DNA of 50,355 nucleotides, from sequence record PZ871096.1, one strand, 5' to 3'. Below, in pieces: positions 6,783-50,327 of this stretch. The stretch is from a phage. The number at the start of each line of letters is the position of its first letter. Within the stretch, counting starts at the first letter, position 1. The notes under the pieces are model-generated. The model saw only the letters and a program-made list of their open reading frames with translations. It was not told the origin of the DNA and made no database searches. A program made the translations under genes and the position numbers.

Positions 6783-7754
6783 ATGGCTAAAAAATATGAT
6801 GAACTAGATGCTACGATTGTAGCGAATCATTTGCAGATTCAGGGTGTTAAGACCGACGCTTCTGATATGGGTATTTGGACCGCTCAAGAGCTACACAAGA
6901 TCCGCTCTACCGCATACGAGAAAGAGTATCCGGCAGGTTCCGCGCTTCGCGTATTCCCTGTAACAAACGAGCTTTCTGATACTGACAAGACTTTCGAGTA
7001 TCAGACTTTTGATAAGGTTGGCTACGCGAAAATTATCGCCGACTACACCGATGATCTGCCGACTGTTGACGCGTTGATGACTTCTGAGTTTGGCAAAGTG
7101 TTCCGCCTGGGTAACGCTTATCTGATCTCCATTGATGAGATTAAAGCAGGTCAGCGAACTGGCAAGAGCCTGTCAACTCGCAAGGCTAACGCTGCGCAAA
7201 ATGCGCATGATCAGTTGATTAACTTCCTAGTGTTCAAAGGTTCCAAGCCTCATAAGATCGTTTCCGTTTTCGATCATCCTAACCTTACGAAAATTGCATC
7301 CAAAGGCTGGATGAGCAATGACGGCAATACCAAGTTCCCGCAGGTAGCAAGCGATGAACTGGAGGCCGCAATCGAAACGATCGAGGAAGTAACAAAAGGC
7401 CAGCACCGAGCGACTAACATCCTGATCCCGCCGTCCATGCGCAAAGTCCTGACGGTTCGAATGGAAAATACCACTGAAAGTTATCTGGAATACTTCCAGA
7501 AGCAAAACGGCGGTATCACTATCGACTCTATCGCAGAGCTTGAGGATATTGACGGCAAAGGTACGAAAGGTTGCTTGGTTTACGAAAAAGATCCAATGAA
7601 CATGAGCATTGAGATTCCAGAAGCGTTTAACATGCTTCCGGCGCAGCCAAAAGACCTTCATTTCAAGGTTCCTTGCACTTCCAAGTGTACTGGCCTTACG
7701 ATTTATCGTCCGTTTACGATGGTGCTTATTACTGGCTTGAAAAAAGCTGAGTAA
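6783..7754 (+). CDS. major capsid protein
   Basis: 323 aa; strong SD GGAGGG; size and position of a lambda-E/T1-type major head protein. Confidence 0.8.
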   Translation: MAKKYDELDATIVANHLQIQGVKTDASDMGIWTAQELHKIRSTAYEKEYPAGSALRVFPVTNELSDTDKTFEYQTFDKVGYAKIIADYTDDLPTVDALMTSEFGKVFRLGNAYLISIDEIKAGQRTGKSLSTRKANAAQNAHDQLINFLVFKGSKPHKIVSVFDHPNLTKIASKGWMSNDGNTKFPQVASDELEAAIETIEEVTKGQHRATNILIPPSMRKVLTVRMENTTESYLEYFQKQNGGITIDSIAELEDIDGKGTKGCLVYEKDPMNMSIEIPEAFNMLPAQPKDLHFKVPCTSKCTGLTIYRPFTMVLITGLKKAE

Positions 7755-21486: not shown

Positions 21487-21514
21487 TTGACTAAATCAAC
21501 CAAATGGCTACAAT
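21487..21514 (+). promoter_or_regulatory. sigma70-type promoter for exonuclease-ERF-SSB operon
   Basis: TTGACT (21487-21492), 16-nt spacer, TACAAT (21509-21514); SD GAGGAG; ATG 21545. Confidence 0.55.
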
Positions 21515-26101: not shown

Positions 26102-27031
26102 TTATAGCAGTGATTCGGGCTTGTAGAGTTTTCTTTCTACGCCCTGTTTAAAATTATCGTTAACAGGCATCATTATGTCAAGACCTCTTTCCTCTGCCGA
26201 GATTATCACATCACGATCATCTTTCCGGCAGACTACACGCATTCTTCTTTCTCCTTTATATCTATGCGCAACCATTTCAAGATTTGAAGGAGTAAAGCAA
26301 GCCCACACCTCTTGACCAGTTGATAAATGAACATGCTGGGAGTCAACCCAATCAAGGCACAAATAGATCGTCTTATCTGTGCTACCTGTTTTAACAACAG
26401 ATCCGCGCGTGTAGTCGCGAGCTAAAAACCAATCCTTTCCATCCTCATCAATGAAAAGCACGTTACACATTTCATCATCCAGCCCGTCATCATGCACCAG
26501 GTGACAAGGTAGCGCGTGAATGTATCGACCATCCTTGACGCCGCAATCATAATAACAATCTTCCGGCGGATATATCCCCTCATAAACGCTTAAGGGTGTG
26601 CGATCGAATTTTAATGTTTTTGCCATCACTTTTTCGCAGCATTCATGACTTGCCTGTTTCCCGAACGAGTAACCAGAAGAACGCGAAGCGCGCTTGTTTG
26701 CTCTGATCCTGTAATCCTGCGGCACTTTTCCGAGGAAGCGGCCCAAAATGTTGATGGCCTCGCTGTAAGGTTCGCCAGTTAATTTCATTAACCAACCGAT
26801 CCCTGTGTCGTTACCGCATACGTTGCAGATAGCGCCGCCGTCGCCCTCTTCATTTAGCTTATCAGTCCATCTAAAACGATCCTTGCCGCCGCAGTGTGGG
26901 CAAGGCTGATGCTTTTTGTTGAAAACATCGCTATGCAGTCCGCAAATGCTTTGTAGTGCTTCACGCCATAACCCCTTCATATATGGCAAAACGTCTTCTT
27001 TCTGATAGGTCATAAAGTTTTCAGTATTCAT
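26102..27031 (-). CDS. DNA primase (zinc-finger containing)
   Basis: ORF-track frame 26102-27109; start moved to ATG 27031 because a terminator hairpin (27041-27080) lies inside the longer frame; CPHCGG...CNVCG zinc-binding motif. Confidence 0.55.
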   Translation of the reverse strand: MNTENFMTYQKEDVLPYMKGLWREALQSICGLHSDVFNKKHQPCPHCGGKDRFRWTDKLNEEGDGGAICNVCGNDTGIGWLMKLTGEPYSEAINILGRFLGKVPQDYRIRANKRASRSSGYSFGKQASHECCEKVMAKTLKFDRTPLSVYEGIYPPEDCYYDCGVKDGRYIHALPCHLVHDDGLDDEMCNVLFIDEDGKDWFLARDYTRGSVVKTGSTDKTIYLCLDWVDSQHVHLSTGQEVWACFTPSNLEMVAHRYKGERRMRVVCRKDDRDVIISAEERGLDIMMPVNDNFKQGVERKLYKPESLL

Positions 27032-40992: not shown

Positions 40993-41021
40993 TTGACACA
41001 TTAAATAGCATTATTGATAAT
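40993..41021 (+). promoter_or_regulatory. strong sigma70-type promoter for rightward operon
   Basis: TTGACA (40993-40998), 17-nt spacer, GATAAT (41016-41021); spacer contains a degenerate copy of the conserved box (ATAGCATTATTGATAATG). Confidence 0.6.
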
Positions 41022-44118: not shown

Positions 44119-44326
44119 GCGCGTCAAGCACAGGTTTACTGATAACCACGGCGACGCGATTGATGTATACAAGTTTGGCGATCGAGTTTTTATTGATGGC
44201 ACGTTTGAAGGTGGGCGTAGGCCGGATTTTAGGTCGATACTTACCGTTGACCAAGTGCGCAAGCTGGCAGATAAGTTAAATGATCTGGCAGATGAAATAG
44301 AATACAAGCAAATCCATTTTAATTGA
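44105..44326 (+). CDS. hypothetical protein
   Basis: 73 aa ORF. Confidence 0.45.
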   Translation: MKTNKRVKHRFTDNHGDAIDVYKFGDRVFIDGTFEGGRRPDFRSILTVDQVRKLADKLNDLADEIEYKQIHFN

Positions 44327-44337
44327 TAGGTTTTATA

Positions 44338-44874
44338 ATGAAAAAATACACTTTCGAACTATGGGGCAAGAAGTACGAATTAATGACCAGCAAGCCGATT
44401 GTTATCGTTGATCTCGACGGCACACTATCGGACGGATCGCATCGCTTGCACTTGCTGCCAACTGAAAACTTGCACCTTACGGAATCGTGGCGCGAGTTTA
44501 ACAGGGCCGCCGCCGGAGATTCACCGATTAAAAGCACGATCGCGGTTATTAACGGTTTATGGGTGTCGGGATTTGCCATCGTCATCTTGACCGGACGCAG
44601 CGACGAGGTTCGCTATGAAACCTTCAAATGGTTGAATGAGAACGGCGTGAAGTTTGACGAAATCATCATGCGCCGCCAGGAGGACAATCGAAAGGATACG
44701 GTTATTAAAGAAGAAGCCTTGCGCGCTATTGGCCTGGACAACATTGTTTGCGCCTTTGACGATTCGCCTAACGTGGTTAAGCACTTCCGCAGCTTGGGGA
44801 TCACAACCTATCAGGTCACGGAATACGACAAGCCACACGCTCACATACAATCTCACGGCGTGGAGAAATTATAG
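44338..44874 (+). CDS. HAD-superfamily phosphatase (polynucleotide 3'-phosphatase-like)
   Basis: ORF-track frame 44323-44874; ATG 44338; motif I IVIVDLDGTLSDG, C-terminal AFDDSPN. Confidence 0.6.
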   Translation: MKKYTFELWGKKYELMTSKPIVIVDLDGTLSDGSHRLHLLPTENLHLTESWREFNRAAAGDSPIKSTIAVINGLWVSGFAIVILTGRSDEVRYETFKWLNENGVKFDEIIMRRQEDNRKDTVIKEEALRAIGLDNIVCAFDDSPNVVKHFRSLGITTYQVTEYDKPHAHIQSHGVEKL

Positions 44875-46348: not shown

Positions 46349-46939
46349 ATGAAACGAGACATTATTATCCTTAATGGGCCGCCTGGTTGTGGAAAGGACA
46401 CTATTGCAGCTTACCTAACGGGCCATCGTTACCCAGCGGTTAAGGCATCATTCAAGCAACCTATGTTCGACATTGCTTTTTCTATGCTTGGCCCGACTCG
46501 ATACGATGAATTTATGGACCTGTACAACGACCGAGAGCAAAAAGAAAAGCCTCAAGTTATCTTAGGCGGCAAGTCACCTCGACAATTCATGATCTGGATT
46601 AGCGAGGATGTAATGAAGCCAGTTTTTGGGGATCACTATTTCGGGCGTCGAATGGTTGAAGAGATTCACGAGATGTACCGAGATTTGGCGGTTGTGATCA
46701 GTGATGGCGGATTCCCCGAAGAAATCAAGCCGCTCGTTAAGGCGGGGCATGAGGTGCATATTTGCCGATTGCATCGCGACGGCTTCACGTTTGCTGGCGA
46801 TTCGAGAGACTATATTGACCTGAGCGGTTATCACTATCGAATCCACCACTATGATTTCCACTTGCAGGACGGCAAGCCGGAACTGGCTGTAAGCGAGATC
46901 GTCAATGCAGTCAAATGGAAGCACACACAGATTAAATAG
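46349..46939 (+). CDS. P-loop nucleotide kinase (T4 dNMP-kinase-like)
   Basis: 196 aa; N-terminal Walker A ILNGPPGCGKDT resembling the SGKDT loop of phage dNMP kinases. Confidence 0.5.
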   Translation: MKRDIIILNGPPGCGKDTIAAYLTGHRYPAVKASFKQPMFDIAFSMLGPTRYDEFMDLYNDREQKEKPQVILGGKSPRQFMIWISEDVMKPVFGDHYFGRRMVEEIHEMYRDLAVVISDGGFPEEIKPLVKAGHEVHICRLHRDGFTFAGDSRDYIDLSGYHYRIHHYDFHLQDGKPELAVSEIVNAVKWKHTQIK

Positions 46940-47939: not shown

Positions 47940-48230
47940 ATGGCAAACAAAACTTACCGCAAACTACTGGTTAACGCTTTTGAAAACATTGCGCAGTGTA
48001 ACAAGTGGAACGACTCTAAACACTCGCCAGTCACAATGAAGCGCGCCGGATTCAAAAATGCTCGTTCATGGGCGCGAGCTTTCGCAGCTTGCTATATGCC
48101 GGATGGTGGACTAGGAGTGATGAACGATTTCTTGATCAACATGATAGAGGAAGCGGCGCGAGAGGATCGACCGCTGACACAGCGAGATTTTGACGACTTC
48201 GCGCGCGATGAGCTTTACTATCTGAGCTAA
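47940..48230 (+). CDS. hypothetical protein
   Basis: 96 aa ORF. Confidence 0.45.
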   Translation: MANKTYRKLLVNAFENIAQCNKWNDSKHSPVTMKRAGFKNARSWARAFAACYMPDGGLGVMNDFLINMIEEAAREDRPLTQRDFDDFARDELYYLS

Positions 48231-49159: not shown

Positions 49160-49288
49160 ATGGATGAGTACAAACAACCTTCGCAGTGGTGCAAAGAGAA
49201 GCAAGAAGAGGCACTGGAGCGCGGAGATGTAGAAGAAGCTATGAACTATTTCAAACTTGCGGAAGAATGGAAGGGGAGAGGGTACTGA
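49160..49288 (+). CDS. small acidic protein (42 aa, below ORF-track threshold)
   Basis: hand translation MDEYKQPSQWCKEKQEEALERGDVEEAMNYFKLAEEWKGRGY; stop TGA overlaps next ATG (TGATG). Confidence 0.4.
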   Translation: MDEYKQPSQWCKEKQEEALERGDVEEAMNYFKLAEEWKGRGY

Positions 49289-49518
49289 TGTTCGGCATGA
49301 ATGAGGCGCAATTCAACGCAGCTAAACGCCAGGCTAAAAAGTGCGGCGAGGCGATGAAAGCGGATGTGGAAAAGCGCGGGAAGTATGTTGATGAAGTAAT
49401 GAAGGGCATCATTGCAGAACACTACCAGCCAATCGCGCCAATGTTGACGATCACTCAATTCATTTGGCTATGTGGTTACTTGCGCGGACGTTGGGGGAAC
49501 GCTTTCGACAGGGAATGA
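49288..49518 (+). CDS. hypothetical protein
   Basis: ORF-track frame 49186-49518; ATG 49288 with GGGGAGAGGG SD. Confidence 0.45.
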   Translation: MFGMNEAQFNAAKRQAKKCGEAMKADVEKRGKYVDEVMKGIIAEHYQPIAPMLTITQFIWLCGYLRGRWGNAFDRE

Positions 49519-49547
49519 TTGACAACTCTTTCCTGATTGGTTAGCAT
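49519..49547 (+). promoter_or_regulatory. sigma70-like promoter
   Basis: TTGACA (49519-49524), 17-nt spacer, TAGCAT (49542-49547). Confidence 0.4.
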
Positions 49548-49607
49548 GGCGTCGTTTACATAAGAGCGGCTTAGTCCGAACGCGTGACGCGATAGTCACA
49601 CAACAAC

Positions 49608-49666
49608 GGCGATATGCAGGAGGTTTTTGCAATGCAAGATAATCCGTAAGACGTATCGCCTTTTTT
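49608..49666 (+). promoter_or_regulatory. candidate leader-peptide attenuator (mini-ORF inside terminator-like stem)
   Basis: stem GGCGATA (49608-49614) / TATCGCC (49654-49660) followed by T6; between them SD AGGAGG and mini-ORF ATG CAA GAT AAT CCG TAA (49632-49649). Confidence 0.3.
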
Positions 49667-49680
49667 AATGGAGATTCAAA

Positions 49681-49914
49681 ATGATTAAATACAAATTAAC
49701 CGTTTCTTTCCGTGATACCGTTATTCATCCTTTCTACAATAGCTTTGTTAACAGCTTTACAGTAGAAGCTACAGAGGATCAGCTAGACGGTGACGAAACT
49801 TGCATTTCTATCGGTAATGTTGCTTACCCGATTCACAACATTACCAGCATTAAGCGTGAGGTTGTCGCTGATGAATTACAAAGTGAAGATGACGATCCGG
49901 CGAATGGGGCGTAA
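49681..49914 (+). CDS. hypothetical protein
   Basis: 77 aa; SD GGAG. Confidence 0.45.
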   Translation: MIKYKLTVSFRDTVIHPFYNSFVNSFTVEATEDQLDGDETCISIGNVAYPIHNITSIKREVVADELQSEDDDPANGA

Positions 49915-50056
49915 TTGCCAATCATGCAAACAGGAATATGAATGCGTAGTTGATGCTCTTGATGAACTGGAGGCAGTAGCAAAAGCAAAAGAGCAATCGG
50001 GCGCTAATCCTGAAACACATCAATTTTCAATTAACCTTGTGAGGGCTTTACAATGA
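49871..50056 (+). CDS. hypothetical protein with CxxC pair
   Basis: ORF-track frame 49790-50056; first ATG 49871; CQSCKQEYEC. Confidence 0.35.
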   Translation: MNYKVKMTIRRMGRNCQSCKQEYECVVDALDELEAVAKAKEQSGANPETHQFSINLVRALQ

Positions 50057-50277
50057 TCGCATTATCTTTCTGCATTGGTTTTATCATGGCTATCATTATC
50101 TTTTCCGTTGTCATGCGCTTTGCTTATAAGTTCGTGATTAATAAAGGTTGGTACGCTTCTGCCATCTGGAGCGAAAAACAAAAGAAATGGCTTGTACGTG
50201 GTCAATACCTGATGATCGGCAGCAAGATCCTAAATTCCATTCGAGCCAAAGATGGAAAAGTAAAATATACAGCTTAA
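50053..50277 (+). CDS. small membrane protein
   Basis: 74 aa; N-terminal TM helix FCIGFIMAIIIFSVVM. Confidence 0.45.
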   Translation: MIALSFCIGFIMAIIIFSVVMRFAYKFVINKGWYASAIWSEKQKKWLVRGQYLMIGSKILNSIRAKDGKVKYTA

Positions 50278-50282
50278 AAATT

Positions 50283-50305
50283 ACCCGCCGCACGGCGGGT
50301 TTTTT
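50283..50305 (+). terminator. intrinsic terminator
   Basis: CCCGCC-gcac-GGCGGG followed by T5. Confidence 0.7.
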
Positions 50306-50318
50306 ATTGCCCGTTGTC

Positions 50319-50327
50319 TGGTATAAT
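50319..50327 (+). promoter_or_regulatory. extended -10 promoter element feeding the gene at position 1 across the window junction
   Basis: TGGTATAAT; followed by AGGAGG at 50343-50348, 7 nt before the window end. Confidence 0.4.

What the first reader, a model, noticed from the sequence alone, without database searches (positions are those of the whole stretch)
49519..49680. Leader with mini-ORF enclosed in a terminator-like stem: possible translation-coupled attenuator
Seen directly: after a sigma70-like promoter (TTGACA-17-TAGCAT) the 127-nt leader contains hairpin GTGAC-gcgata-GTCAC (49586-49601), then stem arms GGCGATA (49608-49614) and TATCGCC (49654-49660) followed by T6. Between the arms lie an AGGAGG SD and a mini-ORF ATG CAA GAT AAT CCG TAA (49632-49649; also readable from ATG 49614 as an 11-codon ORF ending ...DNP-stop). 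Inference: peptides ending Pro-stop are known to terminate slowly, and ribosome occupancy of the loop would prevent the terminator stem from forming, a classic attenuation logic, controlling the gene at 49681.
Basis: inference. Interest (0 to 1): 0.5.

Follow-up and report, generated by a model that had tools for sequence, protein, structure and literature searches.

The report
Conserved T1-like phage leader RNA with terminator
The promoter, hairpins and terminator-like stem are real and belong to an unannotated structured leader RNA shared by T1-like phages, but the tiny ORF inside the stem is a lineage-specific accident rather than the sensor of a translation-coupled attenuator.

Summary
The window is a complete T1-like phage genome (Drexlerviridae, Warwickvirus). 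The promoter TTGACA-17-TAGCAT, two small hairpins (P1, P2) and the long terminator-like hairpin P3 plus T-run are conserved in relatives. Base-pair covariation is strong: 97.7% of cells paired, 16 pairs with compensatory changes, and 0 of 500 shuffles reach the observed value.

The 5' half (promoter, CGTnnACAnAAGAG, P1, AACG, P2 with a GCGATA loop) and a last hairpin whose loop ends in CCGTAA recur at the same position, 2-4 small genes upstream of terS. This holds in Tlsvirus, Tunavirus (T1 itself), Eclunavirus and tRNA-carrying relatives; Webervirus has a reduced form. There is one copy per genome, no Rfam match, and no annotation in the T1 record or the TLS promoter list.

The mini-ORF sits in a ~17-nt apical insert that most relatives lack. 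Its changes preserve pairing, not peptide. No alternative antiterminator fold exists.

Best reading: a sigma70 promoter drives a structured cis-acting leader whose last hairpin is, in this lineage, an intrinsic terminator. It releases a ~113-nt RNA and gates read-through into genes 49681-50277. The leader's molecular function is unknown.

The parts
49519..49547 (+). Sigma70-type promoter: -35 TTGACA (49519-49524), 17-nt spacer containing the conserved CTGATTGG, -10 TAGCAT (49542-49547).
   Evidence: TTGAC and TAnnnT are kept in every relative across six genera. The stop codon of the upstream gene (49516-49518) abuts the -35.
49553..49566 (+). Conserved 5' end of the transcript, CGTTTACATAAGAG. 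Family consensus is CGTnnACAnAAGAG. The predicted start is near 49554.
   Evidence: There is a single exact match in the window. The motif is conserved in Tempevirinae, Tunavirus, Webervirus and Eclunavirus. The start site itself is inferred, not mapped.
49567..49578 (+). Hairpin P1 (CGG / CCG here; 4-5 bp in relatives), followed by the invariant linker AACG at 49579-49582.
   Evidence: Across 33 distinct sequences, all 4 pairs show compensatory changes and 97.6% of cells are paired. That alignment was fitted to the model.
49584..49599 (+). Hairpin P2: GTGAC-GCGATA-GTCAC, a 5-bp stem with a conserved 6-nt loop.
   Evidence: RNAalifold predicts it independently. 100% of cells are paired in A2 and 99.4% in A3, and 4 of 5 pairs show compensatory changes.
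49600..49607 (+). A/C-rich single-stranded linker ACAACAAC.
   Evidence: Conserved as CAACAAC or AAACAAC in group A.
49608..49660 (+). Hairpin P3 (terminator stem). The lower helix is 49608-49616 with 49652-49660 (9 bp). The middle helix is GGA 49619-49621 with TCC 49643-49645. The apical helix is 49625-49630 with 49634-49639. The invariant 3' bulge GTAAGA is at 49646-49651.
   Evidence: -19.8 kcal/mol. In the lower helix, 6 of 9 pairs show compensatory changes and 98.9% of cells are paired.
49621..49642 (+). Lineage-specific apical insert of ~17 nt (exact borders depend on the alignment). It carries part of AGGAGG (49618-49623) and the start of the mini-ORF (49632-49649).
   Evidence: Absent from 15 of 20 group A sequences. 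It resembles the SD plus start (TTGCATAATGCAAAACAAT) of the gene that follows the leader in Tunavirus.
49661..49666 (+). T6 run directly after the stem: the predicted transcript 3' end, giving an RNA of ~113 nt.
   Evidence: A U-rich run of 4-9 follows the stem in all group A sequences. It is absent in Tlsvirus, Tunavirus and Eclunavirus.
49670..49914 (+). SD GGAG (49670-49673) and the 77-aa gene (49681-49914), the first gene downstream of the leader.
   Evidence: No Pfam or PHROG match.
49871..50277 (+). Two further small genes of the same unit: a CxxC protein (49871/49904-50056, phrog_2919) and a DUF7299 membrane protein (50053-50277).
50283..50327 (+). Strong terminator (50283-50300 plus T6), then an extended -10 promoter TGgTATAAT (50319-50327) for terS, which starts at window position 1.
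   Evidence: Annotated as a terminator in phage Sip and in T1.

Best explanation
The region is a promoter plus a structured, cis-acting 5' leader RNA that is conserved across T1-like phages (Drexlerviridae). In this lineage (Warwickvirus, Hanrivervirus, Henuseptimavirus-like) the last hairpin has been built into a factor-independent terminator. Host sigma70 RNA polymerase starts near 49554 and transcribes the conserved 5' motif, P1, P2 and P3. Most polymerases, including those arriving from upstream early promoters, then release the transcript at the T-run (49661-49666). This gives a ~113-nt structured RNA. The fraction that reads through expresses the three small genes 49681-50277 and stops at the terminator at 50283-50306. 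How much reads through is set by the terminator. It may also be set by a factor (a phage protein, or RNA polymerase itself) that recognises the conserved loops and bulge (GCGAUA, GUAAGA/CCGUAA). Translation of the mini-ORF does not set it. The mini-ORF is a by-product of an apical insert that merely lengthens the hairpin. Shown: sequence features, conservation, covariation, single copy per genome, and absence of the ORF in relatives. Inferred: the start site, termination, read-through, and any factor binding.
For: Genome context: the window is a Warwickvirus genome, and the element lies in the 162-nt gap between a T1p59-like gene and the small genes before terS. Promoter, P1, P2, P3 and the T-run are conserved in 20 diverse group A sequences. 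There, 97.7% of cells are paired, 16 of 27 pairs show compensatory changes, 0 of 500 shuffles reach the observed value, and slid controls give 27-54% paired. RNAalifold finds P2 and P3 on its own. G.U pairs make the structure strand-specific, which points to RNA. P3 has a stem of -19.8 kcal/mol followed by U6. The U-run is present in every group A sequence, and in L102 it is inserted in front of the ACCCATTCAGGAG tail that follows the hairpin in terminator-less genera. No promoter lies between the T-run and ATG 49681. A covariance model finds exactly one copy in the genome at 108 bits, with the next hit at E = 0.18. It also detects the 5' half in Tlsvirus, Tunavirus, T1, Eclunavirus and tRNA-linked relatives. 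The last hairpin with a CCGTAA loop occurs with 7 different fully complementary stems. The gene after the leader differs between genera and is a tRNA in L117, LF82-12 and Phleasolo. The leader therefore serves whatever follows it. That favours a role in transcription or RNA metabolism over control specific to one ORF.
Against: No transcript data exist for any T1-like phage in the searched literature, so the start site, the 3' end and termination efficiency are unverified. Several genera have no U-run after the last hairpin, so termination cannot be the family-wide function, and the purpose of P1, P2 and the conserved loops stays unexplained. No antiterminator or RNA-binding homologue was found among 19 proteins scanned, 18 from the early region plus TerS. 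That scan was not exhaustive. The wide loop (35 nt between the arms of the lower stem) could make the hairpin a slow-folding, weak terminator.
Confidence: 0.5

Rival explanations
1. Translation-coupled attenuator. A ribosome on the mini-ORF MQDNP, slow to terminate at Pro-stop, keeps the terminator stem open and lets polymerase reach gene 49681.
For: A perfect AGGAGG lies 8 nt before the ATG, and the stop codon is 2 nt before the 3' arm. A ribosome at the AUG or the stop codon would cover part of an arm. Slow termination at Pro-stop is established knowledge.
Against: The ORF is absent from 15 of 20 related leaders that keep all other parts. L103 has the apical extension without an AUG. Substitutions are non-synonymous and preserve pairing. 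SD and AUG are partly buried in the apical hairpin. There is no alternative helix or upstream pause hairpin. The ORF lies inside the terminator loop, so it emerges only when the polymerase has already reached the T-run (inference).
Confidence: 0.05
2. Stand-alone trans-acting small RNA. The promoter-to-terminator unit makes an abundant ~113-nt RNA early in infection that acts on host or phage RNAs or proteins, for example through its conserved single-stranded 5' end or as an Hfq-type RNA.
For: The unit has its own near-consensus promoter and a terminator with a U6 tail. It has a conserved single-stranded 5' end (ACAUAAGAG) and an A-rich AAC-AAC linker. Different lineages could release the leader by different routes: a terminator in group A and Webervirus, or an abutting tRNA 5' end (RNase P site) in L117, LF82-12 and Phleasolo.
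Against: In Tlsvirus, Tunavirus and Eclunavirus nothing ends the RNA before the next SD and ATG. The element is always in the same orientation, immediately 5' of the next gene. No complementary target for the conserved motifs was found in the phage genome. It has no similarity to any E. coli sequence or Rfam sRNA.
Confidence: 0.2
3. Processive antitermination signal (put-like RNA acting on RNA polymerase, or a nut-like site that recruits a phage or host factor). Polymerases that have transcribed the leader become terminator-resistant. They then read through P3, the terminator at 50283 and the many terminators of the packaging and structural genes.
For: The element is a promoter-proximal multi-hairpin RNA with conserved loops and covarying stems. 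It sits at the entrance to terS and the late genes, which carry many intrinsic terminators: 24 are annotated in Sip and 21 were predicted in TLS. It also precedes untranslated tRNA genes. A terminator right behind a strong promoter is the lambda PR'-tR' layout.
Against: There is a single copy per genome, unlike putL plus putR. It has no sequence resemblance to put, boxA or boxB. terS has its own promoter after the 50283 terminator. Webervirus has only P1 plus a terminator-like hairpin. No Q or N homologue was found among 19 proteins scanned. No conserved -10-like pause element occurs in the initial transcribed region.
Confidence: 0.15
4. Unrelated promoter and terminator that happen to be adjacent. 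P3 simply ends the upstream early operon, and the rest of the leader has no function of its own.
For: T1-like genomes are described as series of units flanked by terminators. P3 would also stop transcripts coming from the upstream promoter near 48230.
Against: This does not explain the compensatory changes in P1 and P2, the invariant loop, bulge and 5' motifs, or the retention of the leader in genera that lack the U-run.
Confidence: 0.07

Closest known systems
Lambda late promoter PR' with 6S RNA and terminator tR' (and the StxS RNA of Stx phages)
   Same: A strong sigma70 promoter is followed within ~100-200 nt by an intrinsic terminator, just upstream of late genes including terminase. By default it produces a short RNA (PMC7547250, listed).
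   Different: No Q homologue, Q-binding element or conserved -10-like pause element was found. Here the leader RNA itself is highly structured and covarying. terS has a further promoter of its own.
HK022 put RNAs
   Same: Promoter-proximal, protein-independent multi-hairpin RNAs in a phage that uses only host polymerase (PMC9378689).
   Different: put is ~70 nt with two stem-loops and occurs twice per genome. This element is 70-170 nt with 2-5 hairpins and occurs once. It shows no recognisable sequence resemblance to put (judged from memory; the put sequences were not retrieved or aligned), and in this lineage it ends in a terminator. RNA polymerase binding was not testable.
Leader-peptide transcription attenuators (trp, his, pyrBI)
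   Same: A leader with an intrinsic terminator lies in front of the structural genes. In this phage a short ORF is present in the leader.
   Different: There is no conserved leader ORF, no regulatory codons, and no alternative antiterminator or pause hairpins. The ORF lies inside the terminator loop rather than upstream of it.
Riboswitch-type transcription attenuators
   Same: Covarying stems with conserved loop and junction nucleotides are followed by a terminator.
   Different: There is no match to any Rfam family at E <= 10 and no switching helix. The terminator is missing in several genera, and the downstream genes are unrelated to one another.
T1 'transcriptons' (promoter-gene-terminator units proposed for T1 by Roberts et al. 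2004, as cited in PMC11447400)
   Same: The unit is bounded by Rho-independent terminators and driven by an RpoD-type promoter.
   Different: This promoter is not among the three sigma70 promoters listed for TLS. Nothing is annotated in the corresponding T1 gap 7591-7754. The structured leader had not been noted.

Membership tests
Leader-peptide (translation-coupled) transcription attenuator | A leader ORF with a functional start, conserved among relatives | tested here: not met
   The mini-ORF is present in only 5 of 20 group A leaders. L103 has the extension without an AUG. ATG 49614 is not conserved and has no SD.
Leader-peptide (translation-coupled) transcription attenuator | Mutually exclusive antiterminator and terminator helices, with a pause hairpin that couples ribosome and polymerase | tested here: not met
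   Folding the nascent RNA up to 49631 or 49651 leaves the 5' arm unpaired, with no competing helix. No covarying alternative pairing is visible in the alignment.
Leader-peptide (translation-coupled) transcription attenuator | An intrinsic terminator between the leader and the first structural gene | tested here: met
   A 9-bp GC-rich stem plus U6 ends 14 nt before ATG 49681.
Intrinsic (Rho-independent) terminator | A GC-rich hairpin immediately followed by a U-tract | tested here: met
   The stem is -19.8 kcal/mol, followed by U6. Stem and U-run are conserved, with compensatory changes, in group A.
Intrinsic (Rho-independent) terminator | Transcripts actually end at the U-tract | not testable with these tools
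   No transcriptome of a T1-like phage was found.
Sigma70 promoter | -35 and -10 hexamers at 16-18 nt spacing, conserved in relatives | tested here: met
   The match is 10/12 with a 17-nt spacer. TTGAC and TAnnnT are kept across genera. The start site is not mapped.
Known riboswitch or other Rfam RNA family | A match to a curated covariance model | tested here: not met
   There are no hits at gathering score in the window. Around the element the only hit is a chance SNORD26 match at E = 6. ARAGORN finds no tRNA or tmRNA.
Lambda-type Q antitermination module (PR'-qut-tR') | A Q-family protein encoded by the phage | tested here: inconclusive
   None was found among 19 proteins scanned with Pfam and/or PHROGs, 18 from the early region plus TerS. 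The remaining genes were not scanned.
Lambda-type Q antitermination module (PR'-qut-tR') | A conserved -10-like (TAnnnT) pause-inducing element in the initial transcribed region | tested here: not met
   The conserved motif CGTnnACAnAAGAG contains no conserved TAnnnT.
HK022 put RNA | About 70 nt, two stem-loops, two copies per genome downstream of the early promoters | tested here: not met
   There is one copy per genome, with three or more hairpins and a length of 113 nt here. put features are taken from PMC9378689.
HK022 put RNA | Binds the RNA polymerase beta' zinc-binding domain and suppresses termination in cis | not testable with these tools
   This requires in vitro transcription or reporter assays.
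Hfq-type trans-acting sRNA gene | Own promoter and own terminator with a U-tail in all members | tested here: not met
   This is met in group A and Webervirus. Tlsvirus, Tunavirus and Eclunavirus have no U-run before the next SD.
Hfq-type trans-acting sRNA gene | A conserved seed with complementary targets | tested here: inconclusive
   No complement of the conserved motifs occurs elsewhere in the phage genome. Host targets could not be scanned.

The most novel reading that the evidence does not exclude
The leader is a previously unrecognised, family-wide regulatory RNA of T1-like phages that acts on the transcribing polymerase. It would work either alone, like put, or by recruiting a phage or host factor to its conserved GCGAUA and CCGUAA loops. 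This would license read-through of its own terminator and of the many terminators in the packaging and structural genes. That would supply the missing early-to-late switch for phages that use only host RNA polymerase.
Probability: 0.15. Interest if true: 0.75.

Novelty: new member of a known kind. Interest (0 to 1): 0.45.

Why it matters
T1 is one of the classical coliphages, yet how it orders its gene expression using only host RNA polymerase is unknown. The TLS reannotation paper still lists open questions about transcription signals in these phages. A single-copy, strongly covarying leader RNA sits behind a near-consensus promoter at the entrance to the packaging genes. It is present in hundreds of sequenced Drexlerviridae and absent from Rfam and from the T1 record and the one T1-like genome paper checked (TLS). 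That makes it a concrete, testable candidate regulator. The result also corrects an annotation error: 100-aa CDSs that start inside the terminator stem in four GenBank records. Finally, it shows that a textbook-looking SD-ATG-stop inside a hairpin can be a fossil rather than a sensor.

Tried and rejected
- **Rfam.** Searches at gathering score and at E <= 10 found nothing.
- **tRNA or tmRNA.** The ARAGORN scan found none in the window. The Tunavirus leader has a D-arm-like hairpin loop UAGUGGUUAA, but ARAGORN calls no tRNA there.
- **Host origin.** BLAST of the element against 5,426 E. coli genomes gave no match.
- **Bacterial and archaeal genomes.** The promoter-plus-motif pattern gave 18 hits. 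All are chance, since none scores with the covariance model.
- **Extra copies in the phage genome.** There are none.
- **Trans-acting seed.** No complement of ACAUAAGAG, CCGUAAGAC or the linker occurs at any phage translation start.
- **Riboswitch-like switching.** No alternative fold was found.
- **Pseudoknot or long-range pairings.** I considered the 5' GUUUAC with GUAAG, and the P2 loop GCGAUA with the 3' arm UAUCGC. Neither covaries in the alignment, so both were rejected.
- **boxA resemblance.** The 5' motif is complementary to lambda boxA CGCUCUUA only in group A and lies on the wrong strand, so I treated it as coincidence.
- **RfaH ops resemblance.** GGCGATAGC against GGCGGTAGCGTG matches only 7-8 of 12, so it was rejected.
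- **N-terminally extended CDS.** The frame from the ATG in the stem is broken by T-run length variation in Henu8, KarlJaspers, JLBYU41 and grams, so it was rejected.
- **Q- or N-type antiterminator.** None was found among 19 proteins scanned.
- **Literature.** Searches for T1-like phage transcriptomes or sRNAs found none.

Full report
**What the window is.** The last 1.25 kb of the window is 98-99% identical to many Escherichia phages of the genus Warwickvirus (Drexlerviridae, Tempevirinae), such as MikeNSara, atuna and tunus. The 50,355-bp window is a whole T1-like genome written so that terS starts at position 1. The finding lies in a 162-nt gap. Upstream is a 76-aa gene (49288-49518, phrog_303, the homologue of T1 ORF59). 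Downstream is a 77-aa gene (49681-49914), the first of three small genes that precede a strong terminator (50283-50306) and terS.

**Checking the observation.**
- TTGACA at 49519-49524, a 17-nt spacer, and TAGCAT at 49542-49547.
- Arms GGCGATA 49608-49614 and TATCGCC 49654-49660, then T6 at 49661-49666.
- AGGAGG at 49618-49623.
- ATG CAA GAT AAT CCG TAA at 49632-49649, and the 11-codon frame from ATG 49614.
- The gene ATG at 49681.

The one error is the small hairpin GTGAC-GCGATA-GTCAC, which lies at 49584-49599, two bases left of the stated position. The promoter is the best consensus match (10/12) in the last 4.3 kb and one of about 19 such sites genome-wide. ViennaRNA folds 49608-49660 into one extended hairpin of -19.8 kcal/mol. 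It has a 9-bp lower stem, an asymmetric internal loop (CA / GUAAGA), a GGA/UCC helix, and an apical 6-bp helix with the AUG in its loop. The pattern terminator scanner missed it only because it allows loops of 3-8 nt.

**Relatives within Tempevirinae.** A blastn search found the region in 132 phage records spanning 99% down to 69% identity. Alignment of 19 loci, and then of 20 non-redundant 'group A' sequences from GenBank and IMG/VR, shows the following.
- The -35, the -10 and part of the spacer (CTGATTGG) are conserved.
- So are a 5' motif CGTnnACAnAAGAG, a first hairpin P1, the linker AACG, the hairpin P2 and an A/C-rich linker.
- So are the long hairpin P3 with an invariant 3' bulge GTAAGAC, and a U-rich run directly after the stem.
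- The stems change by compensatory substitutions.
  - P2 occurs as GTGAC/GTCAC, GTGGC/GCCAC, GTAGC/GCTAC and CCAG/CTGG.
  - The P3 lower-stem 5' arm occurs as GGCGATATG, GGCGCTATG, GGCGGTGTG, GGTGATGTG and GCGCCGCG, each with a matching 3' arm.

RNAalifold predicts P2 and P3 without guidance, and 12 of its 16 pairs show double changes. For my five-helix structure, 97.7% of 433 cells are standard pairs and 16 of 27 pairs have compensatory changes. No shuffle out of 500 reaches the observed values for four of the five measures. Sliding the partners by 1-3 columns drops pairing to 27-54%. Conserved G.U pairs make the fold specific to the + strand, which points to an RNA structure.

**The mini-ORF.** The SD and ATG sit in a ~17-nt insert at the top of P3. 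The insert exists only in Warwickvirus and in two Hanrivervirus records (JLBYU41, grams). Most Hanrivervirus, Henuseptimavirus-like and other relatives have GCAGG-TTTTTA-CCGTAAGAC instead, and keep everything else.
- One metagenomic relative (L103) has a different apical extension (UCCGC-AAG-GCGGA). It fills the same helix columns by compensatory changes and has no AUG.
- Within the insert, codon 3 is GAT, AAT or TAT. G-to-A turns a U.G pair into U-A. The G-to-T change in JLBYU41 is matched by U-to-A on the other strand. Selection therefore acts on pairing, not on Asp/Asn/Tyr.
- The ATG at 49614 has no SD and becomes GTG or disappears in several relatives.
- In the short forms that ATG runs in frame into the next gene. 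It has been annotated as a 303-nt CDS in slyngel, G29-2, pSf-1 and egaa. T-run length differences (T6, T7, T8, T9) break that frame in Henu8, KarlJaspers, JLBYU41 and grams, so it is an annotation artefact.
- The insert resembles the SD plus start-codon hairpin of the gene that follows the leader in Tunavirus. GAGG..TTGC..AATGCAAAATAAT compares with GAGGATTGCATAATGCAAAACAAT. It may be a captured fossil of that translation start; this is inference with low confidence.
- Folding of the nascent RNA shows no alternative helix that could compete with the terminator.
- The ORF lies inside the terminator loop. Its initiation region only emerges from the polymerase when the polymerase has reached the T-run, and nothing upstream could synchronise ribosome and polymerase (inference from the known footprints of RNA polymerase and the 30S subunit).

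The translation-coupled mechanism is therefore not supported.

**The element is family-wide.** I used the upstream protein as an anchor; 835 phage records carry it. I then read the downstream gap in other genera. Tlsvirus (Sazh, 011D2, TLS), Tunavirus (SH2 and T1 itself), Eclunavirus (Ec_L1) and further relatives share these parts, either right after that gene or one gene further on:
- TTGAC-N17/18-TAnnnT, then CGTnnACAnAAGAG.
- P1 with the stems GGCTC/GAGC, GGCGC/GCGC and GGCCC/GGGT, then AACG.
- P2 with a GCGATA-type loop, then a variable middle part.
- A last hairpin whose loop ends in CCGTAA, with seven different fully complementary stems.
- The tail AAcnATTCAgGAG.

Webervirus has a reduced version: the 5' motif, P1 and a terminator-like hairpin. 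A degenerate pattern retrieved 70 IMG/VR stretches of DNA; the sequences extracted from them and from loci fetched earlier were all Drexlerviridae-like contigs of ~50 kb, apart from two chance sequences (three stretches).

The covariance model built from group A finds one copy in the window at 108 bits, with the next hit at E = 0.18. It recovers the 5' half in the other genera at E of 1e-5 to 1e-8. On that model-fitted alignment, P1 and P2 are 98.6% paired, and 8 of 9 pairs show double changes.

In these other genera no U-run follows the last hairpin, and the next SD follows directly. In L117, LF82-12 and Phleasolo the leader abuts a tRNA gene instead. In group A the old last hairpin has been merged into the larger P3, and a U-run has been added. 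L102 still carries the ACCCATTCAGGAG tail behind its U-run.

The element has no Rfam match and no E. coli match. It has no real match in 185,579 bacterial and archaeal genomes. It is not annotated in T1. It is not among the three sigma70 promoters listed for TLS.

**How it most likely works.**
- *Shown:* a conserved promoter; a conserved, covarying, single-copy leader RNA; and, in this lineage, a stable GC-rich stem plus U6 with no promoter between it and the next gene.
- *Inferred:* host polymerase starts near 49554. Most transcripts, including those coming from upstream promoters, end at 49661-49666 and release a ~113-nt RNA. Read-through supplies the three small genes up to the terminator at 50283. 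terS then has its own extended -10 promoter (TGgTATAAT, 50319-50327).

P1, P2 and the conserved loops are kept in genera without a terminator, and in front of unrelated ORFs or tRNAs. The leader must therefore do something beyond terminating. A role acting on transcription or RNA fate in cis seems most likely.

No Q- or N-type protein was seen among 19 proteins scanned, 18 from the early region plus TerS. No transcript data for any T1-like phage were found.

**Comparison and novelty.** In layout it is closest to lambda PR'-6S-tR'. As a promoter-proximal structured RNA it is closest to HK022 put. It fails the defining tests for leader-peptide attenuators, known riboswitches, put and Q modules (see the membership table). 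It is best filed as a new, undescribed structured leader RNA family of a known general kind. The mini-ORF part of the finding is ordinary. The conserved leader is moderately interesting, because it offers a testable handle on gene regulation in T1-like phages.

Noticed in passing
window, 22 sites, e.g. 2093, 30064, 31135, 41781, 42244, 43582, 45063, 45434, 46936, 48230 (+) and 6736, 10489, 34394, 36556, 37230, 39148, 40453 (-): The 19-nt repeat ATAGCACTTTTTGTTAAAA occurs 22 times, against 2.6 expected. It is the 'DR' repeat of unknown function reported for TLS and T1. Here each copy is followed, after ~15-20 nt, by a TATAAT-like -10 (CATAAT, TATAGT or TATAAT). A variable inverted repeat often brackets that -10, and a conserved CATCGAAAC/CATCAACAA leader and an SD follow. 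The copies look like a phage-specific promoter class with non-canonical -35 spacing.
   Followed up: partly
window 50283-50327: A strong terminator (ACCCGCCGCACGGCGGGT plus T6) is immediately followed by an extended -10 promoter TGgTATAAT for terS. Genes 49681-50277 therefore form a separate unit bounded by two terminators.
   Followed up: partly
L009 745-1047, L010 747-1049, L017 747-1049, L019 740-1042: GenBank records of slyngel, G29-2, pSf-1 and egaa annotate a 303-nt CDS that starts at the ATG inside the 5' arm of the terminator stem and runs through the T-run into the next gene. The frame is broken in sister phages by T-run length variation, so this is probably a mis-annotation.
   Followed up: yes
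L117 1045-1275; L126 337-588; L061 ~1000-1219: In some Drexlerviridae the conserved leader is followed directly by a tRNA gene instead of an SD and ORF: tRNA-Arg(UCU) in L117 and Phleasolo, tRNA-Ser in LF82-12. The tRNA 5' end abuts the leader tail ATTCA(A/G)G, so RNase P would release the leader.
   Followed up: partly
L062 1030-1060, L127 688-715, L126 452-475, L071: Tunavirus-type leaders (T1, SH2, LF82-12) carry an extra hairpin with covarying stems (GTTGC/GCAAC, GTGC/GCAC, GGGC/GCCC) and a conserved loop (A/G)TAGTGGT(T)AA that resembles a tRNA D-loop. ARAGORN calls no tRNA there.
   Followed up: no
window 49614-49652 compared with L062 1086-1110: The apical insert that carries the mini-ORF resembles the SD plus start-codon hairpin and first four codons (MQNN) of the ORF57-family gene that follows the leader in Tunavirus and Tlsvirus. 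It may be a captured remnant of that translation start.
   Followed up: partly
L012 (MG065663) and about 20 further 'UNVERIFIED: Campylobacter phage' records: Records labelled as Campylobacter jejuni phages carry this Tempevirinae region at ~77-81% identity to the window and are classified as Drexlerviridae. The host label looks doubtful.
   Followed up: no
window 40993-41021 (+), 26181-26153 (-), 21487-21514 (+): Other near-consensus sigma70 promoter-like sites sit in intergenic positions. TTGACA-17-GATAAT at 40993 lies at the head of the rightward early cluster, matching the position of P01 in TLS. A second TTGACA-17-GATAAT lies at 26181 on the - strand, and TTGACT-16-TACAAT lies at 21487.
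   Followed up: no
window 44323-44874 and 46349-46939: The early region encodes a polynucleotide kinase/phosphatase (HAD_PNKP) and a dNMP-kinase-like protein. The first could be RNA- or tRNA-repair related.
   Followed up: no
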